Part shown: positions 1-49,232 of the stretch, piece after piece | Numbering within the stretch: position 1 is the first letter of the stretch | Layout of the letters: every line of letters starts with the position of its first letter | Origin: Chrysomallon squamiferum | Lineage: Eukaryota > Animalia > Mollusca | Reading direction: 5' to 3' | Assembly (NCBI GenBank): GCA_012295275.1 | Contig: CM022673.1 | Span: forward strand, 310,001 to 374,000 | DNA length: 64,000 nt | The notes under the pieces: model-generated | Told to the model about the DNA's origin: nothing | The model's database searches: none | Seen by the model: the letters and a program-made list of their open reading frames with translations, nothing else | Made by a program: the position numbers and the translations under genes

Positions 1-293
1 AAAATTGAAACAATAGAATAAAACAAATCTGTCTGTAAAACAGCTGTAAACAAAAGATCATGCATTTTAAGTTTTTGACATTGAATATTTTTGTTAATAA
101 ACATCAGATTAATAATGCAATGTACTTATAATCAATTAAACAAGGTTTACTATTGAGAATACTGAAGGATCAAGTTCACCCCAATAATCATGAAAAAAAC
201 GGAAGATGGTCTTACAGCATGAACAAATTATTAAAGATGTCACAGCATATTTTAAATTTAACAGTTACTAGGTGTCAAAAATAAAGTTTTTAT

Positions 294-843
294 TTAATTT
301 ATATTTTCCAGCACTGACTTGAGAAGAAACAAGATTAATACAGATAAAATATCTTGAAAATATTCATTTTAATTTCTTAACTCAATACTGACATTTTTAG
401 TTAACTTAATTTTATTATTCACCTTTATACCAGTTTCATCTTGCAGGTAATATTTGCCATTTTCTGTCTTATGTAAACTCCACAAAAGCTGAATAATGCA
501 ATCATCTAAAAACTGCAACAAATATTACAATAAAGTAGTTTGAATAATAAATAATTTATTTGGGGGAAAAGCTCTTTTAAAACACAATAAGAAAACAGAC
601 ACAAAGAAAAATCCCAACAAACCAAGAAAGTAAAAATCACAAAAACATAAACAAAAAAAAAAAAACCCAAAACAACCTCACAACCCCATGAAACAAACAT
701 TTGCAATGTTTTATTCTTCTAAGTAAAGAAAAAAAAAATCTTCATATTCTTTTATTAGTTATTTTTTATTGTCATATGTCACAATATCCAAAAACAATAA
801 AACAATAATACAAAGTATATTTAGGCCACTGGTATTTTAAAAT

Positions 844-884
<41 letters not shown>

Positions 885-3800
885 CTATTTTCATTAATTA
901 TCTAAAATTTCTTTTTTTCCCTTTGAAAACAATTAATAACATAGAATTGAATTTTATATTGTGTTCTTTAATAAAGAAAGTACAATAATCTACCTCACAT
1001 TTGCTTAGAACTTCCATAAAAACATCAGGAATATCATCTGTCATAAATGGCTGCAATGAAAAGGGAAGAAATAAAGAAATACTTGACTTTAACCATTTAC
1101 TACATAATTTACACAGTATTTTAAATCTGATTACAAATGAATGAATGCTTTAAAAATATATTTCAATAGTTTTTGCATTTCCTAATGTAATGATGATGTC
1201 AGAAAAAAAAAAAAATAATAAAAAAAATAAGCAACACACCTAATTGCATGGAAAACATTATTGCAATTAACTTATTGTTTCCAAATGCAAGTTATTTGAA
1301 AGTGGCAGAGATATCACAATTTTTTTTTTTTTTTTTTTTGTTTCTCAATGTACACTACATTTATTTCTGTTAATGTTTCAACATGGTATAATAACCCATA
1401 ATTCATGATCCTGAATTACCAGATATGGATTAAGTCAAGTCAAGTTGAAACACTATGGCAATTAACATCCAAGTTTTCTGTCATTTACATTATTAGTATC
1501 CAGTTGTAAAAATAATTGCAATCAGTTTTTACCTTTATAAGATTTTCATGTAGTGGAACATAAACTGCCAAAACATTTATTAGATTTGCAGCACACATCA
1601 TGGCTGTCTCTTGTTTATTTGAAGAATTTACATGCTTGAGCCACCAAACAGCTTTCTCTGTATTTAGAAAAAGGGTATATTATTTGGCAGTTTGATTTCG
1701 AATAAGTGTGTTATTACTAATATCTAATTTAAACTTTATTTGTGAAAAATTACACTTAATTTTACTTTTCAATATTATTAAAATTTTAAATGTTTTTTCT
1801 TCTTTTTTTCAATTTTTTTTACACACTGAAATTTGTCTTTCAGTTGATCTCTCTCTCTATATATAAAGAAAAGATATACAAAATTAATAATAATAATAAT
1901 TAAAAAAAACAACAACAGATAAACAAACAAATAAATTAAAATATCCATAATTGCACATGTTCAATAAGGAGTTAGTAATCTTGTTGACTATTATATATTT
2001 ATACCAGAAAGTTTTTCTTCACACATAAGATTTGCTACGTTTTTCCGACTGCAGATATGATGATTGAAAACCTCTTTTAAAACAATACATATCTCTGCAT
2101 TAATACCCTCTGTCTCCTCGGTTATACACTGAGTATGTTGGTCTTTCAGTTTTGAAATCAATAGTCTAAGCTCCTTCAGAAGCGGTTCTTAAAAGAAAAT
2201 GAAAATCAGTAATTTAATAACAAATACTGAATGCAATGACATTAAAAGTACAATTTATTTTACACTTTATAGTAATGCAAATAATGGATTACCAAAAAAT
2301 TATACACATAAATCTATATAGTGGTTGTGACAGATAATATTTACTTACCTTGGGCCTGATGTGCTAACTGTGTCTTCAGACTGTCATCTCTAACCAAAGC
2401 TAATGGAATAACATATGTAACTGCACTGGCTGTTAAACTGGCTTCTTGATCAATAAGCATTTTGGCACTTTCCACATATCCATTGTCACAAGCATAATGT
2501 AATGGTGTTTTTTCACCTTTTCCTTTAACACTCAAAGAAAAACCTTCCTTTGCCATTGTTTTGAGAATTTCAGTTTTTCCATATTTTGCAGCAATACATA
2601 TGAGTGGTTCTTTAATTTTCATTGTTTTCTGCATTGTTTTCATTGTTTGTGGGGTAGAAACATAATCTACACCACACGGTGAATGTGAGTCAAACTTGCG
2701 GTTCAATTTCTTATACAGTAACAGAAATGCTTCCTTGTTCCCACTGATTGTTGCTCCATATAAGGCTTTAAGCAGCTCATTGTCCGTGAATGACTGATAG
2801 TGCAATGTTTTCTCACACAGTATTCCATTAGTATTCCATGATGCCCAGTAAAGAAATTCTTCACATTTCTTTGACTTGTCATTAATAAGTTTTGTCAAAC
2901 TTCCATGTTTAAGGAATGTCTTTGCTTTCATATGTTTAAATAGAAGATTAACAAAATCTGGCAGAGAACAAGCCTGATGGCTACATATGAGTGACAAATC
3001 AGTGCATTGTTCTCGGACTTCATTAGCAAATCGTACTGCCAGATATTGGTAATTTTCTTCTGCAATTTTAATCAGAAACCAGTTATCAGTATCTAGCATG
3101 TCTGCTTTATTAACAAGTCGCACACGCTGGTATATAAAATCAAGACTACAATACTGAAGAACAATTAATGGACTGTAACACCCAATGATATAAGCAATTG
3201 CATCAAAAATTGAAGGATGCCTTGCTGTTATAAAGGAACTGTTAGATACTAGCAAACCTGAACAAAGACAAGCTGCAGCATCTTCAATATCTTTGGGTCT
3301 AGCCATTCTAATGCCTACTTGGTTCAAAAACCTGTTCAGTTTTGATGGGAGTGCACAAATATCTGATTCTTTAATCGTACCATTTCCATGGATAAGCAAA
3401 TAAAAAACTGCCCTATGATTTTTTTTTTCAATGAACATGTTTTCAATTATGCTTACCAAAAACTGCTGTGGATCTGAAAAAAAGTCAACTGGATGGGACT
3501 CAAAGTCACCACTTTTACTTGTGTCAACAAAGAGTCTGCAACATTCTGGAAATCCAATTAGTTTAGCTGTTTCATTTACAATACTCTTCTTGACTTTTTC
3601 GTCCATATCAATGTTATGGTAACGAAGATGACTTTGAAGAATTTCTAATCTTTCATTTTCTGACAGGTAGTGTTTTTGTGTGAGATCCAAAACACAATTT
3701 TTTGTCATAAAATATGATAGTGATTTTCTTATCCTAACATGAGCTTCTGTTAGTAAACAGCTTTTTGTTGTTATAATCAAATATAACCTTGTGTTTTCAA

Positions 3801-5335
3801 TAGCAATTTCACTTTGTTCTTCATATTTCCAATGGGCTATAAATTTATCTATAACAGTTTTTACTGAGTCAAGTGCAGCAGCATTAACAAGTGAAGACTT
3901 TCCAAAAAGGTCTTCACACAATATTACAGTTTTTTCTTCTGGGTTCCAGAATTCAAGGTCGCGAATTTCTCTCATAATCACTGGGTGGTAATCTTTTTGC
4001 ATCAGAGTCAGAACTATCTGTCGACTCATCAATGTTTTGCCTTCACCTGGACCACCACTTATAAATAAACATCCATGCTGAAATATAAGTTTCTTCGCCT
4101 TGGAATAAGCACCAGTTTCAACAAACAGATCTGCATCTAGTTTTAATTCTTGAATTGTTTGCACTAAAATAAAATGTATTAAAGTAGTTTTAATAACATT
4201 TGCTAATATTATAGGCATAAATTTTTTTAAAATAGAGAAGTCTTTCTCCATAAATAAAGATTTATATTTTAACAATTAAAAACAAGAACGTTAAGTATCT
4301 GGCATTTTATGTAAGGTACAGCCTAATTCTAAACTTTGTAAATATGCTGTACACATTCTGAGCACATATTTTAAATTTTTTTTTTTTAAATAATTGTTAT
4401 GATGAATTTATTTTGTCTAACAGTAATACTTTTTTTTTTTTTTTTTAAATTCTTGTTATAATTTTTTTTTACCATAACAGCATATATAAAAATAACATAC
4501 AAACCTTCTATGTTTCTGGCTTTAAATTCAGTTACATTTTCTGAATTTTCGGATGTATCAGCTGGCAAATAATCAGAATCTAGAATAATATTCACAATAC
4601 ATTAAACTATTTGGGAACATAAAATAAAATATATATGAAACAAGGCCAAATTTATAATAAGAAATCTTTTAGCAACAAATTATAAATTATATACAAATGC
4701 ATAAAAAAAACAAATTAGTTGCACTTGATAACTGGTATATTCTTTTGCCCTTAAGTGTAGTTAAATAAACATTCATTGCGATATATCAGTATATTCTTGA
4801 ATTAAAAGCTCATTCATGTTTATTAACATCTAAAAATTCAAATTTTTTTTACTTTAATTATTTTTAAAATACATATATACCATTCAACATATACAAAAAC
4901 AAAAATAAAAATAAACTAGCTATGGTTATGTTAGATATTAGAGATACTTACCAGAAAGGAAACAGTGTTCTGTATCAACAGGTGTATTGATTATTTTTTC
5001 AACTGCATTTAAATATCGCCGTTGTCTGAGACCTTTTATCAGAACTTCAAAGCCAAAATTCTTTCTCTGAACTATTTTTCTTAAAAGAATACGCATTCTT
5101 GTTTTGTTGGTGTTTGGATTTGTGCTTCTTATTTCATCAACATCATCCCAGGTTAAAGCTCCTTCTTGATACACGAAATCAATGATGTCATTAGCGTTTA
5201 TTTCGTCTAGCAAATATAAATGACATTTTCGCAGCTTTTCTTGATTTTCTGCCCACTGCTGCTCATTGGATGGTTCTTTGGGTCTAGTTTTTGGTTGTAC
5301 ATACACTGCTTGTCTACAACCAGGAATGTTGTTAT
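294..5335 (-). CDS. NLR-like STAND NTPase: CARD (death fold) + nSTAND3-like P-loop NTPase + ankyrin repeats + ARM-like C-terminus; 5' end unresolved
   Basis: Phase-compatible GT-AG exons at 5335-4952 (CARD-like KLRKCHLYLLDEINANDIIDFVYQEGALTWDDVDEI...MRILLRKI...GFEVLIKGL), 4579-4505, 4163-2349, 2187-2005, 1657-1533, 1050-999, 505-423 and a tentative last exon 317-294. The large exon carries FVETGAY, Walker A GGPGEGKT, Walker B VILCEDLFG and ankyrin motifs (LICIAAKYGKTEI, TPLHYACDNGYVESAKML). Family names are from motif recall, not an HMM search. Confidence 0.85.
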
Positions 5336-5578
5336 CTGAAAATAAATATTTTAATAATCATTTCTCAGTTTTGAGTTTTTGCAGGATAACATTACATTTA
5401 TAAAAATAATTGTTTTACAAATGAATTTACCCTTTCAGATTTAACTTAAATGGTCTGGTCTATGATGCTGTATTAAAATATATAAATCAGTAAAAACAAC
5501 AACAAAAAAACAACGAATTTTTCAGTTTTACACAGTAGATAATTCAGTAAATTTAGAATAATCATTATAATGGCTTAC

Positions 5579-5851
5579 CCTGTCAGGAACGCGCATTCCA
5601 AGCATGACCTTTGATAAGCCAATTGTGGGAGTCAACGGCAATACGTCAGCAGTTCCAAGATTATTATTATTATCATTACTGAAATTTTTTGGAACGACCT
5701 CCCCCACCCACAACTAATCAAAAGAGAAAAAAATTTGTATCTAACAAAAGGAATATATAATGACATGCATAATAACGTTCTATAACATTTACAGCGTTCG
5801 TTGACAAATTATAATTACAGGCTCCTTGCTACATTTTGTCTTTTCTGCCAT
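5579..5851 (-). CDS. Candidate 5' coding exons of the STAND gene (MAEKTKCSKEP | LWVGEVVPKNF...)
   Basis: ATG at 5851 with a GT donor after 5819; acceptor ttttgattag before 5713; strong AGG|gtaagc donor after 5579. That donor is phase 0, whereas the CARD exon needs phase 1. An internal donor (TTC A|gtaatg) would fit. Confidence 0.4.
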
Positions 5852-5904
5852 TCTCACTTTCTAACCTAATCTGGTAGCAACAGTAACCTTTTTCTATTTT
5901 TAGA

Positions 5905-5940
5905 AACGTCTGCTGCGTCAATTAGCTTTTTCGCGCCAAA
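5905..5940. promoter_or_regulatory. Putative proximal promoter of the STAND gene with an E2F-like site TTTCGCGC
   Basis: Local CpG cluster in very AT-rich DNA 55-90 bp upstream of ATG 5851; TTTTCGCGCCAAA at 5928-5940 matches the E2F consensus TTTSSCGC. Confidence 0.3.
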
Positions 5941-7375
5941 TCTAAAAATAAGGTAAAAAACGTAAAGAAACATTTAAGATTCAGATTAATATGTATGTAT
6001 GTATAACAAGTATGTATAACAACCGTATAACAAGTCTCACAGAAGGACAGATTTTGCCCACTTTTCTAAAATTTCAATACATCAGTATTTGCTAAAGACT
6101 GATTCTCATTGGTCAAAAGGTCTGGCAGTAGCAACAAATTATATTGAATAAAAAAAAAAAAAAACAACAAAAAAAGAAATTTTTTTTTTTGAGAAAGTCA
6201 TCTTTATTTTACACAAAGTTATATTCATTTTTCGATTTTCTCTTGGTTGAGCGTTGCATTTTTATTTTTTTTTTTTTTTTTTTAATTCTTTTACATGTTT
6301 ATAACTTGTCTTTTGTATTTAATATCACTGTCAGTTACAACAGTTCTATACAAGATACATGTCGTGTATGATGTACTAAGTAACTAAGGCATGTGGAGAT
6401 AATAGCAAAGCGCGGCGGCTATTTTGCCCTAATTGGCTGTACCACTTCAACCATATCACGCTTGAGGATGTGCACCGCTTGCTAGCTTTTCATCGCCTTT
6501 TATTATGTTATATCTGGGGATTTCACCATAACAACACAGGCGGAAAATCTATAAGCATTCTCGATTTTGAATATTTCGATTCGGTTGAGTTTTTCTGTAT
6601 CTACGATGATTTTGTGAAATATAAATTTTCAACACGCTTGAATCACTTAAGCTGGATATATGACATGAATGAAAAACAGTTGGACATTAAATTGTTTTTC
6701 ATCTTATTGTTTTTGAAATTCTATCAAGCAGCTGCACGTATGCTAATTGTTATTTTTACCATTTGAAACATGGTCAGTTCAGTTTCTTGTCTTGTCTTAT
6801 GTTTGAGAATGTAAACTTACTCTTCTTAAATTACATATAGTTAACATAAGGATGATGGAAAAAAATGTGACTAATGTTATAATGGTATTTTCCATCCACA
6901 GTTGTCTGGAGTCTCGATCTCTTCGGATTTTAAAATAATAAAAATTGCCGCCTCTTTCCAAATCAAACAAGTACATGCTACTGTATTCTCTGTTGATTTA
7001 ATTTTTACAGTTCATTCAACCAAATTTTGCATTCCTTTTCATAATTTCTTTTGATTTTTGATTTTCTTTTTGGTTTGTTGTTGATTTGTTTCTTTATTAT
7101 TTGATATTGCCCAGAATTTTTTTTTAAATGTAGCAGTTTTCGGTCAAAAACCGCAATTGTCTTCAATTGTGTTTAACTGATCGAAAATAATAACCAATTA
7201 CAGGCTTTGAAATTACTGCTACTTCCTTAATATTTAACACAACTAGTTGATCTTGATCTTAATATTAAACACATTTACTTGATCAGGGGTTTGAAAATGT
7301 TGTCCACATACCACGTATACTGATTTATTTGTCTTAAAAATGTATATTAATAAATACGACTACCATGCCAGTAAC

Positions 7376-8265
7376 CTTGTCTGTTGTTGACTTTGAGTAA
7401 ATGAGCTTCACTGTATTGTAAATGTTTTATACAACTAACGTACAAAGCTAGATCACTTCAAAAGGCATATAAAGAATTTTTAGGGCAAAAATAGTTTTTG
7501 TTTTTGTTTTTTTTTCTCACAAAAGTGAAATGCATGTCATTCTTATTCCTTTCTTTTATTAACGTAAATAATACCCCCCCCATAAAAAAATTATTTCATT
7601 TTTAGACATATTAAAATTAATTTTCCTTTATTTAGAAATATGATGGTATTGATTTCATCCATTATGTATTTAATTAATTAATTTTAAAATTTTAAAATTA
7701 ATAATAATAATAATAATGATATTATTATTATTATTATTTTTATTATTATTATTATTATTATCTTGGGCACTATTACTATTTATTTACTGGTTTATTATTA
7801 TTTTTTAAATTATATTTTTAATTTGTTATGAAAAAATAAATAAAAAGAAGAATTCGATTCTAAATTGATAAATTAGTAATCTACAAGATGAAGGTTGCAG
7901 AGTGGACTATTATATTTTTCTTCTTGTTTGTACGATTTTTATCCCCCAAGAAGTTTCAACATTTTTATTCCTCACCCCCATACGCACACACACGCATCCT
8001 CGTCACAAAAACACAAATTCGTGGAGAATATTTTTCTTACCGTACATGTGTAGTTCAGAATCACTACAAAAGAAAGAAAAAACAAAACAAATTGTTACAA
8101 CATCAATATTAATGTTTACAAATTGTTTCATACGTAATTATATGACTGTAAGCTAATTATTTTAATGTTGCATTGTTAACTTACATAATAAATTACTAAG
8201 TTGAGGATATATTAAAAATGATAAAACATTCGTTAATACCTCTCATTTTCTTCGCGGTCATCCAT
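7376..8265 (-). CDS. Candidate small spliced ORF (MDDREENESDSELHMYALYVSCIKHLQYSEAHLLKVNNRQ...), either a separate gene or an alternative 5' end of the STAND gene
   Basis: Three consecutive phase-compatible exons 8265-8240, 8063-8041 and 7447-7376 with canonical AG/GT. Further upstream exon-like segments with donors near 9361 and 10020. No homology recognised. Confidence 0.35.
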
Positions 8266-10500
8266 GTTGAAATTATCAGCTAATGATAATTAAACAGCAT
8301 TCGGTACATAATTTCATCCTGTAAAACGAAATAAAACAGTAGAATTTTTTTTTTTTTTTTTTTTTTTTTTATCTTTCAATTGTTCTTGTTGTCTTTCTCG
8401 TTCAGTTATGTGTGCTTTTCTGTACTCTATTTAAGAGTATAAACCCATGGAGTAGATTTCTTTTCCTGCATAATCATCATCATAGTAATATTTCGAATGA
8501 ACATTAATCCGAATTAAGGAGGATTAGGACTGCATGGCTAACAACTAACATTTATTAACGTACACATGTAGTAATACTGTTTCTTTTAATAATAAAATTT
8601 TGAAAAATACTGATGATTTCAAAAGTGCCTATAATATGATAATTACAAAGATATAAAAAGAAGGAAGATTTCGTTTTATTTTTGGGCAGATCTTATTTTA
8701 TTAATTAATTAATTTATTTATTTGTTTTCTTTTATATATATATATATTTGATTAATTAATACATTTGCAACAAAAGGAAGAAACGACTTCGAATATAATG
8801 TAATAATTATTATATGCAATCAAATATGTTAGTTTTACATAAATAGATGGATTTATTTATTTATTTATGATTTTTATTTATTTTTTATTTTTTAAATTAT
8901 TTTGTTTTATTTATTATGTTCGTGTTGTTTGTAAAAACAAAATAAAACTATAAAACATTAAATAAATAAATACTTTAAATCTTCTGTGTAATAAAAGCGA
9001 ATGAATGTATGTTTGCAAAATATTCTGACAAAAGTTCTGATATTCTGATATTATTCATGGATAATTTATGTCAATTTAATGCTTAACGTTTTTGGTTAAA
9101 TGATGTCATATTACGTCAAGAATTAACTAGAAACAGAATATAAATATTATATTTATATGTTTAACAACAATCCAAAATTAATGCTTCTTTTATGGTCAGA
9201 TCTATGGTGGATGTTCTGAGTATTAATCCCCATTTCGAACGTAATAACCAAAAATGTTTATCCTATTGCCTCTCATACTGAGGTAATAATTACATTTTAT
9301 ACCTTTTATTGTTTATCGCCAGTATATTAACACAGATAATTAAAGAAAGAAAAAATAAACCTGTACTTTTTACTATTCAGTTGAGCATATCTGGATCTGT
9401 AAAAGTTTATATTCATTATGTATAATAATATTACTGTTTCTGATAACGCAAATTGTAACCGGAAACCATTTTGTATCTTTTAACTGTCCATTTTTTCAAA
9501 ATCTTAAAATTTTATGAAACAAAAATCGTACAAAGAATATATTAAAAATACTTCATGTGTTTTGAACTTTTTTCTGAATACGAAATTGAAGTTTAATTAT
9601 TAGTGCCTTAGGTGATTCCCCTTTTTGCTACCCTTCCTGAATCCAACCAATGAAATGGCAGATTGATTTAAGTTAGAAATATATACTTTCCGGAGTGGGT
9701 GTTCGTGTTTTTAAACGACATAATGTTATTATTATTGTCATTCTGTTTATTTATTTATTTATTTATTTATTGATTGATTTTTTAAATAATGATTAATATG
9801 AAACATAAAAATAAATAAATACGAGCGTGATTTGCATAACTCATGCCACGATAAAATAACATACCCATATAATCACACTTCCTGGTTGCTTTGTATATAC
9901 ATTATTTTAACGAAACAAAACAGTGTACATCTATAATTATATGGATAACAGCTATAATTAAGAAATAAATATAATATCTGCTTAATAAAATTTTAAATTT
10001 TTAAACAAAACATTGTTACCTTTTTTTTTCAGGCTGCGTGTATTTCTCTTTCCAGTGTGCCTTACATAACTATAAATCCAGTAAAAACAAGTTGTTCCGC
10101 TCATATTTATTACGGATAACCAAAATCTACACGAAGAGCGAACTCTTCATATTTAAATATCGACTTCTGTAAGTGTCTTTTGATGTGCCATTTTCAAATA
10201 ATCTAGATAAACTGTCAACAAAAGAAAGAACATACTGGCTCTGCTGTTAACTACATTTCATAGCGAGGTGGGAGGAGCAATCGTAATTAAATGTTTGCAC
10301 ATACGTTTTGATTAGTCGAGTTTTCATGTTGTCTTTTATCAAAAATCTACTGGAAAAACTTTAATAAACCAATAATTATTGCAGGAATTATGACTCATGC
10401 ATTTTTATAAAATAAAATAAAATAAAACACAAAATAAATCATAAACGCACATTTATATTACACTCCACAAATATTTATTATTATTATTTTATTTTTTTTT

Positions 10501-10539: not shown

Positions 10540-11550
10540 TATTATTAATATAATAATAATTATTATTATTATTATTATATATTTGTTTGGAAACTAAATA
10601 CATCTTGAAATCTAGACCTATCGGAATGGTACCAACAGTTTGGTGGAAATTAAGGAAAAACAAACTATGAAGTAATGAGAACGGAAATAGAACATGCCAA
10701 CTGAGAAAATGGTTGATGTAAACAAAACATTATTTCATTCGACAAAGTATACCTAACATTCTCACTTTCTTGGTGTAACTGTAACATTAAATAATATTAC
10801 TGAATAATATATTTAACGGTTTTAATTTAATTTCAAATAAAAGTTATTAAGTTTATTTATGTTATTTTTAATACTGTAGATGTTGGTTAAATCCTGTTAT
10901 CGATGGATCTGGGATTTCGAATATTTATAATTTCTTTATAAAAATGTAAAAACCACTCTTGCTCTAGTTAGAAAATAATAACTATCATGAAAAAAAAAAT
11001 CTTGTAAAGAAATTGATATATTAATCTTCTTATGTATAGTAATGATATACTTCATTCGAATTACATTTTTACAATTTAGAAATAAATACAAGCAACTGAA
11101 AAGCAGCTTCCAGTCATGTATTTTTATTTACTGGAAGTTAAATTAATTCTCAATTTATCGTTACAATTTTTTACAGTTTTGGCATCCAGCATCTAAATTT
11201 ATGATATAATTATTTTCACGTTTAAAGTAATGTTTAGGTTCAGTTTTTGAAATAACGTGTAGAATAGTATTAGACAGAGCAGATATATCCTGGATCTAAA
11301 TTCAGATGATAGTAAGGCTGGAAATCATATACTCCATGTAACAGAAGTGAACCTACATACTACAAACTGTTGTCACTAAGTTGAAACTAAAGCAGAAATA
11401 GTTATCATTGTTTGAATTACTAATGTTAATGGAGATAAACATTCTTCAGGTTTACATCCAGTTATTTATTTATCTAATGAACAATTCAGAAAATGAAAGT
11501 TTTTTATTTTTCATTTATTAGTTTCAGATAATGTTTGGTGTTACTCTGAA

Positions 11551-14500
11551 ATGACTATGTCTCCATCCATGATTGGAGCAAAGATGAATGATGAAGCCAT
11601 AATTGAGGCTGAAATTCAGCAACAACTTCAGATGATAAATCTGGATGCTGAAGATATTGAAGATGGTGATATTGACATTCTTGAAGGAGCAGATGTCATT
11701 GCTCCAGATGAAGATGCTTTTTCAGAAGTAACTTTTTTATTATAATACAATTTAGATACAAGATGGATTTGTCTCAGTAGTAGATTATTATAAAACAACC
11801 TAATGTTAGTGATTTAAATAAATACTTTTTGTAATGCAAGTATACTGAAATGCTAAGTAACAATAATGATATAGAAACAGTTAATATATAATTTAATTTT
11901 TAAAAATAATACAAAAAATACAAAATTAAAACGGTAAAAAGATTTCTTTTGAAAAAGCAAAGTAATAGTGATTTTATTACTTCTTTATTTTTATTATTTT
12001 CTGGAATTAAATGCGACAGCAAACTTTGAACTATTTACTTTTATGAAGTTGTAAAAAACTATCAAGTACATGCTCAAAATACATCTTTGATCAGTGTTAA
12101 ATAATGTACTAATGAATCCACAAGTCAAACATTTTCTTCAATTCTTAATTTTAATTATGTTGACTCTATATTATCTTGAATATTAATTGTTTTGGGGGTC
12201 AAATTTTCTTGGATCCTTTTTTCAAAAAATTTCTTCAATTTTAATTTTTTTTAAAAACTATAGCCATTACCTGATGTGGAAGAATATCTAGCTTGTATGC
12301 GCAGACAGACAGACAGATTCGAACAGGAGCTGCAAGAATGTGATGAGATTCTCAATCACAAATCACCAGGTTAAATTAGTTAAATGGATTTTTAATATAA
12401 TAATAACCAAAAAAACTATTGAAATAATCTTTTTATAGAATTCGGAATAAAACTGTAAATATGTATTACCATCATTACAGGTATGTTGTATAAAATATTA
12501 TTAATCAGAGCCAAAATAATTTAATTATTATTTACAGAACTACTGTTGTTTTTATTTTTATTAATTTAAATTATATAATTGATTTAATTCTGAAAAAATG
12601 TTTGAGGCTCTCTATGTTGTTTTCACCTGTGATGTTTTGCTTATAATGGGTTAGGTTTTATTTATTTATTTATTTCATTGTTAATTGTATTGACAAATGA
12701 CAGATCAGGAAACCTCATATCATATGTGATCAATTAATTAAATTTCTGTTTTCAAAATATATTTAGATACACATGTGTTTAATGAAGAACTTTATGAAAT
12801 ATCAAAAGAGCTTGGCGAGGATCCAGAAAATCTGAAGAAAAAGGTAAGTTCTTTGAAACTGTAGTTCTACCAAATTTAAAATCCACTAATTCATGAACAG
12901 ACTATATGTCCAGTCTTATGGGTCTCTAGTGTAGCAATTTTTTCTTCTTCTCAGAATGCTGTATATTTCTTTTTGTTATGAAACCCTTTATATCATTGTT
13001 AAATATGAGGACCAATTTAAAAGGTTTAAAAAAACAACCCCAAAACAACAACCAAAAAAACATCTTATGCTTGTTTTATGAATTTGTATTTAACTATTCT
13101 GGTTCGTGCATGCATGATATTTGATGCAAAGTGATATAATGCATTCTGCATACTCTACAGTCATTTGTACACATTTTTTACAATTTTGCAAATGTGATTG
13201 GGAGGAAATAAGACAAACCAGAATTAGAGTACTGGGAGTGAAATGGCAGTTCTGACTCATTTAAGTCAAAAATAAGTATTGCGTTTTTCCACATTAAATT
13301 TATTAACAATTAATCCAGTAATCTGAAGTTTCAGATGATAAATTACTTAATTATGTTTTTTTTTTTTTTATCAGTATTTTTAATAATTTCATTTATTTAA
13401 AATAAAGATTTTAGAAGAACTCGACAAAGAAGATGAACTATACAACATTAACAGCAATTGTCAAGAGGAGACAACTCTCTTCATAACCAGTGATACGGAA
13501 TTGCTTAGAATGGATCAGACTGTTGACACAGGAGAAGAAGAAGGAAAAGATGAAGGAGAAGTAGAGAAAGAAAATGAAATTAATGGTAACAAGGATTTTC
13601 CAAAATGTCATTTTTTTTTCTAAACTCTATCTCATTATAAATGAACAAATAATATGAAGGTTTCTGGTCTCACACTTTTTCATTGTACTCGACTGAATGT
13701 ATCTTTGTTTGATTAATGATGCAGTAACTTGACACATTTATATATTACCTGTTAATTTTTGTTAAGTATCAAATTATTTGTGTCTGTGAATACATCATCT
13801 GATAATTCAGTAGAGTGACAATGCATGATTTCATTTATTTCTATTAAACTGTGTTTGTGTTAAAAAAATGTACCTTATAAAATTTTAGATTTACTCCTTG
13901 TAAATTGTAATTCATAATAGTAACCTTTATAAAATTTTGTTTTTTAAAATATTCTTGAGAAAAGTGAACATTACAAAATTTTAAATTTATATTTTGCAAA
14001 TTGTGAATATGAAAAGATATATTACAAAATTCTAGATATATGTTTTGTAATTTGTAGTTTTGTGAAATTTTGTTGTTCTGAGTTAAAATTATACTTCTGT
14101 TTAATGAAGAAACAAAAGGCTATCTTTATAACTTTTATTATTATTATTATTACTAACATATTCATATATACACACACATATAGGCACACATCTACACACA
14201 CATGCACACATACTCACACAAACATATACATACATATTTATTTCTCATCATTAAATTGAAAACGAATTTTACATTTCAAATAATTAAACATTAATTTATG
14301 ATTTTTTAGATGGTGCTTTGGTTGTGTCTGATGAGATCAGTAACTTGGAAAGGTTTCTACATGAGCAGCTTAAAGCAGTAGACCTGAAGTACAGACAACG
14401 CGAGGAACAATGGAAAAAAGTAAGACATGTAGACAGTTACATGAACAAAAGATATTTGTTAAACAACATCTTAACAGCATCTTTTGTTTAACATCATGAA

Positions 14501-17500
14501 GGTAGTATGTGTTCAAAAGAGCTTGTGGATCACCTGTCAAGATTTTGTTTCCTAAAAAAGAAATAATCAACAGTATGGTTGGATGGAATAGAAAATAAGT
14601 TACATTATTTAGCCTTTCAGATTTTAAAATATTTAATAAAAATGTTTTGGTTGGAAATAATAGCATAATAAAATAGAAAAAGTAACCCTTGTTCTTGAAC
14701 TCCTTTTTGAATTTTATTGTCAAAACTTTATTATTAACAAAATATTTGGAAATACTTTGTATACAAAATGTATTTTGGCTACTTGTTATGAATATTTGTT
14801 TTCTTGTTCTGCTAAAGGACTACCAGTCTGTTATGAAGGCTGAAGAAGAATATTTGACAACTAGAACCAAGGAACACGAACAAGTTCTTGAGAAAATGAA
14901 AGCTGAAGAAGATTTAATGATTCAGCAGAGAGAAGTAAAGATACCACATCTATGACTGCTCAGTGCTTCACAATAAACAATTTAATTTTTATAAATTATT
15001 ACTCTTATTTGGTTGTCTTGTGTATATGTCTGTATATGCATGTGTATGTGTGTGCATGAAAATATATAAAATGTGAAGTTAATGAAATTTCAAACTGATA
15101 AAAGTGAATTTTATTGTTTTATATAGATTAAATCAAAAAAAAAAAAAAAAAGAAGAAATTTAAGGAAAATTAAAAAAGGATAAATTAATATATATTTTAA
15201 ACTTTTATATGAGAAGGACAAATAGGTAAACTATTTTTTAACTTTGATAACAAAACACATAAAAATGTGATCAACTAATACTGTTACCTTCTGTTTGTGT
15301 GTGTTTGGATGTATGTGTAATGAATGCCTGTGTATCTGTGTGTATGTACATATGTGCACACAAAAGTATATATCAAATCCCACATTTCCATTAGGAATAC
15401 AAAATACATATTTTTTGTTATTGACAGATGGATGATCAGAAATTAGCTGCTGAAGTTGCACAAACAGAAAGAAAATTAAATGAAGAAGCAAGCAAATTTG
15501 AAGTAATTTCTGTTTTCTGTTTAACTATACAAAACAGATAACACTCGTATTACTACAATAAGTGAATGAGAGCCCTGTTTTATTTAATCTTCATCTTATT
15601 AGCAATTACATAATATATTAACTTTTTCTGAATTAACAGAAGAAACAAACCAAAAAATACTTCCTACAAAAAACAAAAAACGAACACAAAAAAAACAAAA
15701 AAAAAGCAACAAACAACAAACAAACTATACTGAACTCCCTCCTGAAAAACAAAAACAGCAAAACTTAGTTAAGAAAAATAATATAAATGTTTCAATAAAA
15801 TAATAATAACAATGAAATGAATTATATGTATGGAAATTACTCTGTAATTCAGAATAGAGCAAGTATGTATAATGCTTTAAAATGCTATTGATTTTTGGTT
15901 TTGTTTTCATGTATATATTTTAAGATTATATGCAGTACAATAGTCTATTTATGTGTATTTGTCAGGAAAAAATAGCCAAAATGGTTTCTGATTTGGAGAA
16001 GGAACAAGTGGAACTGCACATACAACAAAGGGTAACCCAGGAGAAACTTGATGAAAAAAGAGATATGTGTGCTTTAAAAATACAGAGCTGGTACAGAGGA
16101 ACAAGGTGTGTAAAGCATGGTTAAACTTTATTTCTTTATTTTTTTTAAATTAATTTTCTTGTTGTTTTTTTTTTTTAATTTTAATTTTAATTTTAATTTT
16201 ATTATTTTTATTTTTATCATTTTTGAAATAAATAAGTTAAATTTATATTTAGTGGAAGCCTGGTAAATCATGTCGAAACAAAAACTATTTATTTTATATT
16301 TTAAAAATTAATTAATTGTGTCATTTTGGATATTGTATAAATTATACATTGGAGTCTTTTTGAAGTGTTATTTAAATTACTACAGCAGGGAACTGCTGAG
16401 AAAAGTGTTCTGCTGGGGATAGTGTTAAATAATGGTAGCCATTTGAAAAGGAACATTTGAAAGAAATCAGTTTAACATGGGTGTTAATAACTAAAGAAAA
16501 ATCAAGGGACTTAAATGTTTTGAGAATCTTGTATTAATTCTGTTACTAAATAATTTAGAGATTTATAATTTATGATATATCTATATTAAACATGCCAATT
16601 ATTTATATACATACACATTCTCATAGGCATATGCATTTATACATATGCATACACATGCACATACAAATATTTTACATAGGAAAACATTTAAGAACTTGAA
16701 AATAATTATTGTTAATAAGAATATAATATACAACAAAAAAAAAAGACTAAAAAATAAGAGTGCTTTTTGTCTTAGGGTAAGGAAAATCTATGGTTCTGAC
16801 TTGAAAGAAAAAAGACTGAATAGACAAAAGATGAAAGAATTAGAGCGAATTAAAGAAATTGATATTGAAATAGAAAGAAGGAAAGAGGAACAACGAAAAG
16901 AAGAAGAAGAAAAAAGGTATTTATAAAACTGTTTACTGACATATTTTTATCAGTAGGAAAGACATGAAGTTTATATATGGTAGATAAATAAATGCTATTG
17001 GTTACAATCTATTGTTAGTTAAATTCAGTCACAATCTGAGATTGGAACTGGTCATTGATAACTCAACAAATGAAATTTTGGATTACATCTCTTTGAGGAA
17101 TTAATTTTAGACTTTTTGAAAATTCAAAAGAGGACTTCTCCTAAGTATTATATTTATTTGAAATTTTATTGCTGAAATTCCAGTTAACTGGTTGAACTAT
17201 ATTTTAATCTAGGCAGAAACAGGAAGAAGAAATTCAAAGGCAGAAGGCAGAGGAATTGATGAGAAAAGAGACAGAGAAAAAGAAAAAAGAAGAGCAGGAA
17301 AAGAAAAAGAAAGAGGAAGAAGAAAGAAAGAGAAAAGAAAAAGAAGAAAGAAAGCAAAAGGAAGAAGAAGAAAAGAGGAGAAAAGAGGAAGAAAGAAAGA
17401 AAAAAGAGGAAGAAGAAAGAAAGAGACAAGAAGAAGAAAAGAACAGAAAGGAAGAGGAAAAGAAACGAAAGGAGGAGGAAAAGAAGAAAAAGGAGGAAGA

Positions 17501-20500
17501 AAAGAAGAGAAAAGAGCAAGAAAAAAAGGAAGAAGAAGAAAGAAAACGAATAGAAAAAGAGCAGGAGAAAGAAAGGAAACAAAGAGAGAAGGAACAAAAA
17601 GAAGAAGAAAAGAAAAAAGCTGAGGAAGAGAAGAGAAGACAAGAAGAAGAAAGGAAAAAAGCAGAAGAAGAAAAGAAAATAGCAGAAGTTCAAAGAAGAA
17701 ATGCAGAAGAAGAGAAATTGAATTTTGACAGAGCTATAAAAGAAGTAGAAAATGTGAACCTTTCAGAAAATTTTGAAATTAATAACAAATTGGAAATACA
17801 GCAAAAATCTGATAATTGTGGAGATGAAGAGTTAGTCAAAATAAATAATTCTAAATCAAAGAAACCAGAAGAAAGTAACGAGAAGACTAATTCTGAACTG
17901 AGGTCTGAGCTGGATAGTGACAAGAAAGTGAGAATTAGTCAAGACTTTATGAGAGTTAACAAGTCAACAGAGAGGGGCTGGGAATCTGTCGATGCTGCTG
18001 TAGTTGCTGATGGTGGGAAAACAACAGTGGAGATGAGCAGTAATAGTCTTCCATCACATCTGGAGGCCAAACGATTGACCTGGATTCAAGAATGTTTACC
18101 TTGGAGGTGTGTTATTTAGTTCATTGTCACATAAATAATAATCAAATGTACAGAATGATGCTTATGACTTATTACGTTTTCAAGAATTACATTAATTATA
18201 TGTTTATCATTTAACAAATATGATCGAACTGCAGTGAAAGGGTTTGACTTTGCTTTCAGAAAGAAGATATAACTCTCAAGCTGAAATACAGTTCGACTAT
18301 AAAGAAAAACTCATTTTGATTGCATATGGATTGCATCTGCTACATAACATAGCATGAAATTTTGTATCATATTGAATAGGTTATCACTTTTATTATTAAT
18401 TACCATAGTATTTTAAATTTTATAATGATCTGTAGTTTTTTTTCTCTTTGCTGATAATTCATTTTCAGGTTGAGTTTAGTTCTCTTTTGTTTCAGTAAAG
18501 TTAGTAATGAGCCGTGGAAGCTGAAAGCTGGTATAAAGAAGAAACCAATGAGGCGTCCTCATTCAGCCAAGAAATTACCTCCCATAACAGAGGAGATTAT
18601 CACTGCAGCAGCCAGGACAGCCACTCTGAGACAGGTGAGTTGTTGTTGTCGTTGTTGTTTCAAGGCAAGACATGTTATTTTTACAGAAAGAAAAAAACCA
18701 AAAAACATCCACCACTAAATTTCATATATTTGAACTATAATATTGTGTGAAAAATGTACCAAAGTGACATTAAACAACAACTAATTCATTTTCACTTATG
18801 CCGGGGTGGTTGTGACACCTTGATTTAAGAAGTGGCAAACTAAATTTCTTGTGAATTCATAAATCCTTTGAAAAGCAGATTTTAAAATTCATTAAAAAAA
18901 AATGTATTAATAGAGTTTCCAATAAAATGAAGAATGAATGAATCTAATAAAACAAAATGATTTTGGCAAGACCGTCTAATTCAACTTTCCCAAATAAAAT
19001 GGTGAACAAATATAAAATCATTCTTTCATAATTATTTTTTTTTTCCTGTTAGTTCACTAATTATTACTTTCTATTTATTTGTTACTTAAAACTTTTACCT
19101 AGTAATATGTTTCATGTCATAATATGTTAGTTATTACTGTTTTTCCCTTCATCGTTTTGTTTTGGTTTATTTTATACCAATCTCAATTTGCAAGGTTACT
19201 ACTGTTCATCTGAAAGATCTGCCTGGTTACAGCATGACAACTCTGGGTCAGTGCTGGGGACTCAAGTGTCTCACTATGCAGAACTGTAGTCTGGTTGCTG
19301 TGGAGGGACTTCGAGAATGTCGACAGCTGCAGTATCTCAGTCTTAAGGTAGCCTCCATTGTTTATTTGATCAGTTATTTTAAATAAACCAGTTATGTCAG
19401 TTGTAATTTCAGCTTGTGCTCCAAGCAGTATTAAAAACCAAGATTGGTGTCTTCCACTCAGCAGAAGATGACACATTTTACATAAAAACCACTGACAGCT
19501 GAAAACTAATATCATAAAAACTCTAGCAAAATCATAAAAACTTGCTTTTACTATTGTTATTAATATTGTTGCTAATTTTATAAGTATTTGTGGTTTGTTG
19601 TTTTTATTTTGTGTATGTTTTGAAATAGCTGTTCATTCTTATTTTGTATACACAGAACAACAATATAGAGTATATTGACTTCAGGGATCTGGGGAACTTG
19701 CAAGTGGTTGATTTGTCAGACAACTGTGTGTCTGTGCTGCATGGATTTGATGGCTGTACAAATATTCGCTGGCTTGACCTAACACACAATAATATCACAA
19801 GATTAGGTAATATTCTGCACTGATTCTGTTACTAAAATACAATTATACATTATAACGATAAAATGTTTTATTTCTTTTTTCTTTTTTTTTTAAATTTAAT
19901 TTAAATTATTTTTTTTTATTATATTTTTTATTTTTTTATTTTTTTATTTCATTTCCTTAACATTTCATTTTATCTTACATTAAAACATACCTTTGATGAT
20001 ATGAAGAAATAATGTAAATATATTCTGAATACTTTGAGGTATTTTTATTTGATTTTTGCTAACGAGTCTTGATTAATAATGAAACAAAGAACATATGTCA
20101 GTGCTTCCATTTTACCGAAGGCATGATGGTATTTTATGTAAACCATGTCATTTTATCCTAAAATGTCATCTAGTGTTATTACTGCCACAAGTACACTCTA
20201 ATAAAACAAATGTTAAAACATCATCACACTCATCATATACTGTACTAAACTACACATTTCTTTCATTAAAAATATCATATTAAAGTAATAAGCATTTTGA
20301 TGACAACCAAAAGGAACATCCATTTCACACCAGTCTTTGTTTTTCAGAGGGTTTGGATCCCCTCAGACGTCTCCATACACTGCTTCTTGCCCACAACCAG
20401 CTGATCAATTCTCGAGGATTAGAGGACACACCAACATTACAGTATCTTGACCTGTCAAACAACCATCTCCAGACAGTGGACAACTTGAACAAACTCTGTC

Positions 20501-23500
20501 TGCTTCAATTTATTGATCTGTCATCTAATAATCTGCTGAAGGTTCATGTTTTTATGTTATCCTGATTGAAGACCTTTTTGTGTTCTTGAACATTTGTAGT
20601 GGTGGAAATGTACATTGTGTCTGTGTGTCTAAGTGTGTTTGTGTATGTGTGTGTGTGTGTATGTCTCTGTGTGTATGAGAGAAATTGAGTGTGTGGAGTG
20701 TGTCCTTTTACTTCAGATCAAAGATCTGTCATCTAATAATATACCAAAGGTTAATGCACATCATTATCTAGATATATGTAAGTATATTAAAAAGATTTGT
20801 AATGAACAAAGTAAACTTTTGTGTCTGTAGTATAGTGTACTTATTCACACTGTCTAATAATCAGTACAAGTTAATTATTTTGAGACATATACATCCACAC
20901 ATAATCACAACCACACCCATACCCACACGTACACACACCCAGACATACACATACCCACACACCCACACACACACACAAACACACTCACACATCCACTGTT
21001 ATATATGTGCACAATGTTTGTAAGTAGAATTTATGAGAAACACATTTGTTTAATCTTGGAAATTATATTCAGTTTAATAACATTATATCCTTGATAACCT
21101 TTGTCATTTAATGAATAAAATACTGACTTTTTTTTTCTTTTCCAGTTTCCCGATTTGAGAAATCAGGTTCTGTTGCAGGAATGCAATCTCCATGACAACA
21201 GCATCAGCTCACTGACTTGCTTGAAAAATTACTGGCTCCCTATATTGAGTAAACTAAACATGGAACAAAACAGGTACAAACAAAAAGTAAACAAAGCTTA
21301 ACACACCCTCAACACATTTTAACTTTAACTGCTTCTTCAAGTCATTCATATATTTCTTGTATGAAAATGATATAGAGGCAAATCCACACCTAATCTCTGA
21401 GAGCTGCTCATCAGCTGGCAGTTAGAATTATATTAATCTTTTGATCCTTGGACTCCTGCTTCTACCATGACTCATTCACAGGCTCCAGAACAGACATTTT
21501 GTATATTAAATTAGGAAGAAACATGTTGAAGTTCCCAAACACCTTATTCACCTCACTTCCTGGTTAAATGGTACTGTGGTATGTAAGAAAAGTAGAAAAC
21601 TCTTCATTTACTGGTACTGTGGCTCAAAGGGTTAAATATTCATGGAATAAAGATTAGCTCAATGAATAATGACTTAAATGAAATGTTAAGAAAAAAAAAT
21701 CATCTTAGATTATTGTTCATTTAACTGGGTTAGTCAGAGAAACTGGTATTACCTATCTTGCACTGCTTCCATTTTATACTGCAGCTGTTCCAATAAAAAA
21801 TGAATGAAAAATGATTATACCATTCAGTTTTAAACATTTATAAATACAATTACAGTATATAATGTTATATATCATATTTTAAAGTATGAAAATCAAATAT
21901 ATATATTTTTGTTTTGTTTTCTTTAATTTATATATAATTATTTTTTGCAGTCTGAGTGAATTAGATTCCCTAGAAAATTGCCTTATGATGAAAATATTCA
22001 ACATAAAAAATAATCAAATATTAGGTGAGTTGTTTTTTATTATGTTTAACATTTAGAAAAAAAAAAAAAAAAAAAAATTTGTTTTGTTTACATTTATGGT
22101 ATCAAAAGTGATATATATTTGAAAATAAATTGTTTTTTAAAAAAGACTGAGTGATTTAAATACTAGTATATTGTTCACTGTTTTGTTGAGATTAAAAACA
22201 ATACTGGAACTATCTTTATTATTAAAAACACTATGGTGGTACATGTACAGTTTTTATTTTAATTCATTATTAAATATTTTCAAAAACACAACCTTCCTAG
22301 ATGCTTATCAATAAAAGAGCACCACATGATCCTGTAGCAATAGATTTCTTTTTTCCTTTTATGTTTAAGGTCCCTGTCTCTATATACAGACCATGTAACC
22401 ACATATTAAATTGTTAATTTTTTTAATATGATTTAAACCAATGATATATTCTGATTTTTTATATAAAACTCTTTCCAGATGTTGCAGATTTGCAGGAAGC
22501 TGTCTCTAAATTCAAGTACTTGGATGAGCTGTATCTCCATGGTAATCCAATATCAGATGAGCATGTAAAAGAGTAAGTATATTTTTGAGTATCTTGATTT
22601 AAAATGTAAATGTTACAGTAAGATATTTTTTTTTTATTCTTGCTCCTTCCAGGTGATTGTTTTATATGATTTTGTATTTAAATATATATATATCCATAAC
22701 AAAAAACAAAAAACATTTCATTCCATTTTGTTTAGATTATTTGAAGAGCAGATGCCCAGACTAAAGATTTTGGATGGTGATGAGTTAAATCACAAAGTAA
22801 AACCATCAGTTTGTGTATCTAGTGACTTTGAACTGATGTGCTTAACACAGATTCAGATGACCTCTGACCTCCAGAGTAAATTTCACAGTGAAATAAGGTA
22901 AGTTTTATTCAGACTAGTATGTTGTTCATTGTTTTGTTGAGATTAAAAACAATACTGGAACTATCTTTATTATTAACTGATGATAAATATATTTATATTG
23001 TTGTATCTTTATATATGCAATGCTGAACATCCATGCACAGACACACATGCACATGCACATGCACATACACACAACTACAAACATATAGACACAGACTTAC
23101 ACACAACAGACACACACATACATGTACACAAGATACACCAAAAAAAGAATGATTTATAAAAACTAAATCAAGCTGTCATTTAATATTTCATGTTAATACA
23201 AATTTAAAAAACCCAAAATGTTTAACTTCAGTACAGCAAAGTCTCTGCCAGTTCTGGATCAGCTGAAATTATGTGAGATTTATTTTCACTACTGTGATTC
23301 TTCTTTCAACATGGCTGTCGAGCATCGCTATGCACATGAATATGGTGACATTTCTGTGAACATTCCGAAAGCTCCACAGACCCCCCGTTCTAGTCAGAGT
23401 CGTTCAGCAAGACCCAGGAAGAAAGATGAGGGCGTGTTTCTTGATAACCCTAAAGACTTGTTTGAGAAAGCCCTCCAATCAAGAGGGAAAGACCAGTTTG

Positions 23501-33355: not shown

Positions 33356-33465
33356 AACCCATATTTATAAAATAACAGAATAATAATTGGAGAAAATTAT
33401 CTAAAATAACAAAGTTATAATTATATTTGTTAACCTTCTGCCTATTCAGTGAAAATATTTCTAAG

Positions 33466-49136: not shown

Positions 49137-49232
49137 TGTCGCAACTCTTATTGTTAATTTCCTTCTTTTGTAGGAGAACCTAAGTAATCTGCAGCCTTGT
49201 CAGGGTTTTGAGACCATTTTCAGTTATAAGCC

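What the first reader, a model, noticed from the sequence alone, without database searches (positions are those of the whole stretch)
294..5335. Non-NACHT NLR-like receptor: CARD - nSTAND3-like NTPase - ankyrin - ARM-like tail
Seen in sequence: eight spliced exons give a death-fold CARD-like N-terminal domain, a P-loop NTPase (FVET...ISGGPGEGKT...VILCEDLFG, then GFPECC and HPSIFDAIAY), ankyrin repeats and a helical tail. Established: effector-STAND-repeat sensor is the architecture of NLRs and Apaf-1, and the FVET/DDxFG signature fits the nSTAND3 clade, which occurs in bacteria as well as invertebrates, rather than NACHT or NB-ARC. Inference: an invertebrate inflammasome/apoptosome-like sensor that would recruit a CARD caspase, built on a different NTPase clade with a composite ANK+ARM sensor. 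The ORF track shows only disconnected pieces, so the full architecture is easy to miss.
Basis: partly seen in the sequence, partly recalled or inferred. Interest (0 to 1): 0.82.

Follow-up and report, generated by a model that had tools for sequence, protein, structure and literature searches.

The report
Snail CARD-bearing NLR-like immune switch
A spliced gene, probably from a snail, joins a death-fold signalling domain (CARD) to a switch ATPase of the nSTAND3 type, an ankyrin array and a helical tail; it is a new variant of a large, untested mollusc family and likely acts as an immune sensor that would cluster its CARDs to switch on a cell-death protease.

Summary
The gene is real and expressed. 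RNA contigs join seven minus-strand coding exons, CARD exon to NTPase exon included, through GT-AG introns. Pfam gives CARD, nSTAND3 and ankyrin, and no NACHT or NB-ARC. The predicted fold is a STAND switch module.

nSTAND3-ankyrin proteins are a large mollusc family with swappable effectors, already listed for oyster (PMC8195603 supplement). This scan noted HEPN and RHIM versions on other DNA. I found no CARD version in print. A mussel 2xCARD relative arose separately (p-AU 6e-75).

Oddities: the CARD is closest to MDA5 among solved structures; Walker B and sensor-1 depart from the family consensus; a second 5' exon removes the CARD start.

Likely mechanism: ligand-triggered oligomer clusters CARDs and recruits a CARD caspase; untested. 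New variant of a known kind; interest 0.45.

The parts
8240..8319 (-). Probable first coding exon; ATG at 8265; three upstream ATGs with short ORFs before it
   Evidence: Inferred: the first 8 letters of the 30-letter loose end of RNA contig X2 record 6 match this exon's end followed by GT, once in the window; AG acceptor before 8319.
8041..8063 (-). 23-nt coding micro-exon spliced to the CARD exon
   Evidence: The other 22 letters of the same loose end match here, with AG and GT flanks, once in the window; the frame runs into the CARD exon.
5579..5642 (-). Alternative upstream exon (may begin at an acceptor at 5713); carries an in-frame stop just before the CARD exon, so this form cannot make the whole CARD
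   Evidence: Joint 5335/5579 in RNA contig X1 only, 1 of 3 RNA runs; translations.
4952..5335 (-). Exon with the CARD (about 5261-4980)
   Evidence: Pfam CARD E 1.6e-8; ESM Atlas CARD clusters 0.91; best PDB sequence hit MDA5 second CARD E 1e-5 to 1e-6; spliced in RNA.
4505..4579 (-). 75-nt exon, acidic linker between CARD and NTPase
   Evidence: Joints on both sides in 3 of 3 RNA runs.
3667..4163 (-). nSTAND3 nucleotide-binding domain: Walker A 4056-4033, Walker B 3927-3901, sensor-1 3777-3760
   Evidence: Pfam nSTAND3 E 3.6e-26; motif places and counts; model pLDDT 91.
3022..3666 (-). Helical domain 1 (GFP motif), winged helix (HPSI motif at the MHD-like position) and a short HD2-like linker; boundaries approximate
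   Evidence: Model aligns over residues 1-405 to MalT, NRC2, NLRP3, NLRP9, SAMD9, Z 11.9-13.6; orthologue model to NLRC4 Z 15.4.
2349..3021 (-). Ankyrin array of about 220 residues (room for roughly six repeats, mostly degenerate; only the last two are found by Pfam)
   Evidence: Pfam Ank_2 E 3.9e-12; orthologue model residues about 385-640 align to ankyrin proteins, Z 14-15, mapped to the window.
2005..2187 (-). Tail exon 1 (helical; ARM/HEAT-like as a lead)
   Evidence: RNA joints; tblastn to orthologue E 2.5e-12; Atlas leads.
1533..1657 (-). Tail exon 2
   Evidence: RNA joints; tblastn to orthologue E 5e-5.
994..1050 (-). Tail exon 3
   Evidence: RNA joints on both sides; within the blastp alignment to the orthologue.
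423..512 (-). Tail exon 4, last exon inside the window; the frame is open at its donor and the gene continues beyond the window's left end
   Evidence: RNA joint 512/994 in 2 of 3 RNA runs and a loose end at 423 in X1 and X3; tblastn E 8e-5.

Best explanation
This is a spliced, transcribed mollusc gene for a CARD - nSTAND3 NTPase - ankyrin - helical-tail protein that likely works as an NLR-type immune switch: its repeats would sense a trigger, the NTPase would oligomerise, and the clustered CARDs would recruit a CARD caspase. Shown: the exons, the open frame (926 residues inside the window, about 1040 in all by the orthologue), the CARD, nSTAND3 and ankyrin domains, and purifying selection. 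Predicted: the NBD-HD1-winged-helix fold. From established knowledge of STAND proteins (Apaf-1, NLRC4, and the nSTAND3 protein Avs5): a closed resting state, opening on ligand binding, ATP-bound assembly. Inferred: that the ANK and tail regions are the sensor; that the partner is a caspase-2-like CARD caspase, directly or through a CRADD-like adaptor; that the CARD-less transcript dampens the output. It belongs to a mollusc nSTAND3-ankyrin family whose members swap effector domains; the CARD was attached separately in this snail lineage and in mussels.
For: Splicing and open frame. Domains. STAND fold of the window's own protein and of the orthologue. Walker A lysine intact, as in 42 of 42 relatives; GxP proline and winged-helix histidine kept. 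12 synonymous against 11 non-synonymous differences in the RNA contigs, pN/pS 0.25, p 0.001; 51-56% identity to the Gigantopelta protein in every domain from NBD to tail. Relatives carry death or defence effectors in the same position: caspase in 1, HEPN in 3, 2xCARD in 1 of 42, so caspase output occurs in the family. Avs5, an nSTAND3 protein, assembles to activate its N-terminal effector and needs Walker A and B. Molluscs have CARD caspases but no Apaf-1, PIDD or ASC (PMC11463336).
Against: No ligand, partner or activity is shown. The CARD's best solved relative is MDA5 (E 1e-5), ahead of RAIDD (0.009) and Apaf-1 (0.3), which points away from a caspase. The first Walker B aspartate is glutamate (D in 32 of 42 relatives) and the sensor-1 arginine is lysine (R in 31 of 42); the matching arginine contacts the gamma-phosphate in Avs5, ZAR1 and Apaf-1. 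The only close orthologue is annotated without a CARD. One of the two 5' forms seen cannot encode the whole CARD. Even conservation across domains is unlike a fast-evolving sensor. Molluscs already have CARD-NACHT-LRR proteins that could do this job (PMC11508797).
Confidence: 0.45

Rival explanations
1. Same switch, other output: the clustered CARD is of the RIG-I/MDA5 type and nucleates a MAVS-like or other CARD adaptor, driving antiviral or NF-kB transcription rather than caspase activation.
For: MDA5's second CARD is the top PDB hit for the whole exon (E 1e-6, with the linker before it) and for the core alone (E 1e-5). An unchecked note of this scan reports MDA5-like CARDs fused to Z-alpha domains in the same genome. 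Oyster and scallop have a working RIG-I/MAVS pair.
Against: The Pfam model of RIG-I/MDA5 CARDs (CARD_2) is not hit at E up to 1. CARD subtypes are poorly resolved at this identity and the PDB sample is nearly all vertebrate. No MAVS was found in abalone genomes (PMC11103948), and the NTPase groups with abalone proteins.
Confidence: 0.25
2. A regulatory or helper member with a weakened switch: it binds nucleotide but does not build its own signalling ring, and tunes or partners other nSTAND3-ankyrin receptors, mostly as a CARD-less or decoy form.
For: Walker B D-to-E and sensor-1 R-to-K, on the longer branch of the pair (0.60 against 0.17); short degenerate ankyrin array; stop-containing alternative exon and upstream ATGs; orthologue annotated without CARD.
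Against: Both changes are conservative and occur in 4 and 2 of 42 relatives; Avs5 is active without hydrolysing ATP. The CARD is whole and is spliced to the NTPase in 3 of 3 RNA runs, with an in-frame upstream exon in X2. The orthologue keeps both canonical residues.
Confidence: 0.2
3. A non-immune scaffold: a single-copy STAND kept for a developmental, stress or symbiosis-related role, with the ARM-like tail binding a host protein.
For: One close orthologue only, uniform 51-56% identity, and a tail found in 1 of 150 hits; neighbours in the window are unrelated housekeeping genes.
Against: The family's effectors are defence domains; a CARD is a death or immune signalling module.
Confidence: 0.1

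Closest known systems
Bivalve nSTAND3+ankyrin proteins (Kaur et al. 2021, PMC8195603, supplement: TRADD-N[+HEPN]+nSTAND3+Ankyrin of Crassostrea virginica; Pfam PF20720)
   Same: Same NTPase clade and the same NTPase-then-ankyrin order behind a signalling or effector module.
   Different: Those listed are membrane-anchored, TRADD-N or HEPN-bearing and 1700-2700 residues long; this one is soluble, has one CARD, a short degenerate ankyrin array and an extra helical tail. None has been tested.
Gigantopelta aegis XP_041365218.1 (LOC121380464, uncharacterised)
   Same: Probable orthologue: 52% identity over 775 columns from NTPase to tail; sister in the tree, 100/100.
   Different: Its gene model starts at the NTPase and has no CARD (truncated model or real difference: not testable here); it keeps the Walker B DD and sensor-1 R.
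Mytilus trossulus XP_063405165.1 / M. edulis XP_071137929.1 (uncharacterised 2xCARD-nSTAND3-ankyrin)
   Same: Same domain order CARD-nSTAND3-ANK.
   Different: Two CARDs not detectably closer than chance to this one, no such tail, NTPase in another clade; a joint clade is rejected, p-AU 5.6e-75.
Bacterial Avs5 (Sir2-nSTAND3-TPR; 10.1101/2025.07.08.663546, PMC11897194)
   Same: nSTAND3 NTPase in an effector-NOD-repeat layout; structural match Z 11.2-11.3.
   Different: NADase effector, TPR-type sensor, anti-phage filament. By fold this protein is no closer to Avs5 than to other STANDs.
Apaf-1/CED-4 and NLRC4/NOD1 (CARD-STAND-repeat platforms)
   Same: N-terminal CARD, NBD-HD1-WHD module, C-terminal repeats.
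   Different: NB-ARC with WD40, or NACHT with LRR; neither profile is hit here.

Membership tests
STAND superfamily, NLR-like tripartite layout | P-loop NTPase followed by helical domain (GxP) and winged helix | tested here: met
   Model pLDDT 91, best matches MalT, NRC2, NLRP3, NLRP9 at Z 12.6-13.6; GFP motif, P in 40 of 42 relatives.
STAND superfamily, NLR-like tripartite layout | Effector domain N-terminal and repeat domain C-terminal on one chain | tested here: met
   One RNA contig joins CARD, NTPase and ankyrin exons in frame.
STAND superfamily, NLR-like tripartite layout | Ligand- and nucleotide-dependent oligomerisation | not testable with these tools
   Needs biochemistry.
nSTAND3 (PF20720) | Profile score above the curated cut-off and above other STAND profiles | tested here: met
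   92.1 bits against 27.2; no NACHT, NB-ARC, nSTAND1/2/5 listed at E up to 1.
nSTAND3 (PF20720) | Family consensus Walker B (DDxFG) and sensor-1 arginine | tested here: inconclusive
   EDLFG and lysine here; D in 32 of 42 and R in 31 of 42 relatives; conservative changes seen in 4 and 2 relatives.
NLR in the strict sense (NACHT-LRR) | NACHT-type NTPase | tested here: not met
   No NACHT hit at E up to 1 for the window protein or the orthologue.
NLR in the strict sense (NACHT-LRR) | C-terminal LRRs | tested here: not met
   Ankyrin and helical tail instead; no LRR in the window exons scanned or in the whole orthologue. The last exons lie outside the window.
Apaf-1/CED-4 | N-terminal CARD | tested here: met
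   Pfam CARD 34.9 bits against 23.9.
Apaf-1/CED-4 | NB-ARC NTPase | tested here: not met
   No NB-ARC hit at E up to 1.
Apaf-1/CED-4 | Recruits and activates a CARD caspase | not testable with these tools
   No caspase of this species was at hand; needs binding and cell-death assays.
Avs5 | Sir2 NADase effector | tested here: not met
   CARD in that position; no Avs model hit in PADLOC, only PDC-S73 over the NTPase, E 2e-12.
RIG-I/MDA5-type CARD | Closest to RLR CARDs | tested here: inconclusive
   MDA5 top in PDB but Pfam CARD_2 not hit; no mollusc RLR or caspase CARDs compared.
ARM/HEAT repeat domain (tail) | Alpha-solenoid of armadillo or HEAT repeats | tested here: inconclusive
   Orthologue's tail: Atlas feature hits 0.85-0.88 and TM up to 0.65, all ARM/HEAT/TPR-type and all under the tool's bar; own model helical but pLDDT under 50; no Pfam hit.

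The most novel reading that the evidence does not exclude
Molluscs run a second, overlooked NLR system on the nSTAND3 NTPase that bacteria use in Avs5. Within it CARDs were grafted on at least twice, in a snail lineage and in mussels, giving Apaf-1-free molluscs an apoptosome-like platform; in this snail an MDA5-like CARD would wire an NLR-type sensor into the RLR CARD network, with a stop-carrying alternative exon as an off switch.
Probability: 0.2. Interest if true: 0.75.

Novelty: new variant of a known kind. Interest (0 to 1): 0.45.

Why it matters
Surveys of mollusc immunity count NLRs by the NACHT domain (for example four NACHT proteins in Aplysia, PMC9334734) and report the loss of Apaf-1, PIDD and ASC (PMC11463336), which leaves open what activates mollusc CARD caspases. 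An expressed, intact CARD-nSTAND3-ankyrin gene is a concrete, testable candidate that NACHT and NB-ARC screens miss. It would also give an animal test case for the NTPase clade of bacterial Avs5. The weight is limited: the family and the layout are already on record from bivalves, CARD-STAND-repeat platforms are textbook, and nothing functional is shown.

Tried and rejected
2. NACHT or NB-ARC assignment: not hit.
3. One ancient CARD-nSTAND3 orthologous group with the mussel protein: rejected by the AU test, with the pair named before the tree was seen; the tree holds only the 42 NTPase-bearing rows of the best 150 hits, has long branches and a midpoint root.
4. Search for longer proteins with this CARD: none of 332 candidates at E 0.01; weak evidence.
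5. Search for tail homologues: only the Gigantopelta protein among 1054 candidates of 493-1570 residues and 1 of 150 stored hits.
6. Homotrimer prediction of the NTPase module: no answer, score 0.00, alignment not used; no evidence either way.
7. Metagenome scan for related loci: 44 pattern matches, none a relative.
8. No whole genome is held, so paralogues, the last exons and partner caspases could not be searched.
9. Profile searches of the PDB with alignments A1 and A2 were swamped by ankyrin proteins.
10. Paper searches returned mostly unrelated papers.
11. Scan look-ups by sequence and by a second word set found nothing.
Full report
What is there. The window is AT-rich, intron-rich animal DNA. 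On the minus strand, one RNA contig (run X1, 4654 letters) lies without gaps on eight pieces: 5642-5579, 5335-4952, 4579-4505, 4163-2349, 2187-2005, 1657-1533, 1050-994 and 512-423. Every intron has GT and AG ends. The joints 4952/4579, 4505/4163 and 2349/2187 are in 3 of 3 RNA runs laid, all of one study, and in no contig of run X5, whose kind is not on record. Reads were laid on 1-7700 only, and contigs show presence, not level.

Ends of the gene. At the 3' side the contig leaves exon 512-423 at a GT donor and runs on for 1861 letters that lie nowhere in 1-7700; the first 14 of them are absent from the whole window. At the 5' side 5335 is an acceptor. Two upstream forms were seen. In X2 the contig has 316 further letters; its 30-letter loose end matches a 23-nt micro-exon at 8063-8041 and the end of an exon at 8319-8240, each once in the window. 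In X1 the upstream exon is 5642-5579, which has a stop in frame two codons before the joint; the next methionine is residue 97, deep in the CARD. With the orthologue's further 118 residues the protein would be about 1040 long.

Domains. Pfam finds CARD (E 1.6e-8), nSTAND3 (E 3.6e-26) and ankyrin (E 3.9e-12), and no NACHT or NB-ARC at E up to 1. A model of the NTPase region from the window's own sequence (pLDDT 91) matches STAND modules over its length: MalT Z 13.6 (rmsd 6.3, 306 aligned), NRC2 13.5 (4.2, 270), NLRP3 12.9 (6.5, 315), SAMD9 11.9, Avs5 11.3 (3.8, 183), with ORC/Cdc6 and other AAA+ proteins close behind. The fold says STAND; it does not single out a clade. A model of the orthologue (mean pLDDT 67) aligns residues 1-375 to NLRC4 (Z 15.4, rmsd 4.2, 295 aligned) and about 385-640 to ankyrin proteins (Z 14-15), so the ankyrin array is longer than Pfam shows. 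The tail is helical but poorly modelled; the ESM Atlas returns only ARM, HEAT and TPR-type neighbours, all below its own bar.

Relatives. The word search found one protein among 7801 candidates: Gigantopelta aegis XP_041365218.1, 53% identical. The organism is therefore probably a gastropod related to it. The exhaustive search found 12075 proteins at E 0.001, many of the listed ones through ankyrin alone, and listed the best 150. Of these, 42 match the NTPase. I scanned all 42 with Pfam: all have nSTAND3 and ankyrin; in front of the NTPase 1 has a caspase, 3 have a DZIP3-type HEPN (1 of them with SAM), 1 has two CARDs, and most have no recognised domain, some being partial models. Of 20 clusters looked up, 17 carry names and all 17 are molluscs: abalone, mussel, scallop, Littorina, Batillaria, Gigantopelta. 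The tail is shared only with the Gigantopelta protein. In a 43-row tree of the NTPase module the window protein is sister to Gigantopelta (100/100) inside a 15-row group rich in abalone proteins (96/98), and the mussel 2xCARD protein sits among HEPN-bearing proteins; forcing the two CARD proteins together is rejected (p-AU 5.6e-75), and their CARDs do not align significantly. The CARD-nSTAND3-ankyrin order therefore arose at least twice, or effectors were swapped repeatedly. The Gigantopelta model has no CARD; whether that is real could not be tested.

Is it functional? The listed coding differences between RNA contigs and the window are 12 synonymous and 11 non-synonymous (23 coding rows of the 40 shown; 5 more rows were not shown), pN/pS 0.25, p 0.001, with no frameshift in the coding pieces. 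Some come from shallow contigs and may be errors. Identity to the orthologue is 51-56% in each domain. The Walker A lysine is intact. Two switch residues depart from the family: Walker B glutamate for aspartate (D in 32 of 42) and sensor-1 lysine for arginine (R in 31 of 42). In Avs5 a Walker B aspartate binds magnesium and is needed for defence, and the sensor-1 arginine contacts the gamma-phosphate; Avs5 itself does not hydrolyse ATP (PMC11897194, passages). The changes are conservative, so the switch may be tuned or weakened.

Mechanism. By the established behaviour of STAND proteins, the protein would rest closed, open when the ankyrin and tail regions meet a trigger, bind ATP, assemble, and cluster its CARDs. 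Every step is inferred; a homotrimer prediction gave no answer. I put a CARD caspase as the most likely partner (0.45): the family includes a caspase fusion, and molluscs have CARD caspases but no Apaf-1, PIDD or ASC, with no CRADD detected in Gigantopelta (PMC11463336, passages). Against this, the CARD's best solved relative is the second CARD of MDA5 (E 1e-5 for the core, RAIDD 0.009, Apaf-1 0.3), which supports RLR-type signalling (0.25), though Pfam CARD_2 is not hit and abalones appear to lack MAVS (PMC11103948, passages). A helper or decoy role (0.2) rests on the altered motifs and the CARD-less transcript; a non-immune role gets 0.1. That it clusters CARDs for immune or death signalling by some route is about 0.7.

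What is known. nSTAND3 is described in the supplement of Kaur et al. 2021 as the STAND domain of bivalve TRADD-N proteins, and 11 of the 17 mentions in the Figure 4 data file are oyster isoforms ending in nSTAND3+Ankyrin; none of the 17 has a CARD (PMC8195603; main-text passages and supplement hits seen; one file was not searched and file 4 is cut). Avs5 is the tested bacterial member (bioRxiv 2025.07.08.663546, passages). PMC13449251 (passages and section 12) names nSTAND3 among NLR-like ATPases; its Figure 8c, which I could not see, may show an animal example. Oyster and abalone have CARD-NACHT-LRR proteins (PMC11508797, passages), and an Aplysia survey counted NLRs by NACHT (PMC9334734, passages). 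Searches for nSTAND3 (5 papers), PF20720 (4 papers) and the term sets showed no description of a CARD-nSTAND3-ankyrin protein; the library lacks most subscription papers and bioRxiv supplements. This scan earlier noted HEPN-nSTAND3-ankyrin families in mussels and RHIM-STAND-ankyrin and CARD-Z-alpha genes in this genome; these are unchecked notes.

Verdict. A real, expressed, intact gene; a member of the STAND superfamily and of the nSTAND3 clade; not an NLR in the strict sense and not an Apaf-1 orthologue, but likely working like them. New variant of a known kind. Interest 0.45.

Noticed in passing
window 5579-5713 (-): The alternative exon has a candidate acceptor at 5713; included between the micro-exon and the CARD exon it would add 135 nt with many in-frame stops, like a poison exon.
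   Followed up: partly
window 8266-8319 (-): Three upstream ATGs opening short ORFs lie just before the main start codon, possible translational damping.
   Followed up: partly
window about 9360-9400 and 10020-10200 (-): Candidate 5' untranslated exons, read by eye from splice signals, that could account for the remaining ~214 upstream letters of RNA contig X2 record 6.
   Followed up: no
window 6430-7100: A dispersed repeat with internal ~265-base periodicity; high contig depth and many loose ends in all runs. It lies in an intron of the gene.
   Followed up: no
window about 11500-26500 (+): A spliced gene with a long lysine/glutamate-rich coiled coil, leucine-rich repeats (20284-20562) and IQ motifs (24222-24518); looks like LRRIQ1 (name recalled) and lies head to head with the STAND gene.
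   Followed up: partly
window 33434-34542 (+): LITAF-like zinc ribbon gene fragment (Pfam E 3e-8 at 34243-34539), a family linked to TNF induction and stress.
   Followed up: partly
window 46512-49199 (-): JmjC/cupin-8 hydroxylase gene with a hydrophobic N-terminus (Pfam E 1e-29).
   Followed up: partly
window 58347-58640 (+): Short exon with a CPRC-GKTVY motif that looks like the start of a LIM-domain cysteine-rich protein (recalled; no Pfam hit at 0.01).
   Followed up: no
P0002 (Haliotis rufescens XP_048241358.1): Caspase-nSTAND3-ankyrin fusion: a self-contained apoptosome-like design, uncharacterised.
   Followed up: no
P0016 (Haliotis rufescens XP_046369650.2): nSTAND3-ankyrin protein with a C-terminal PTB (IRS) domain, near this gene in the tree.
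   Followed up: no
P0006, P0014, P0021, P0024: Proteins with two nSTAND3-ankyrin units in tandem; may be fused gene models.
   Followed up: no
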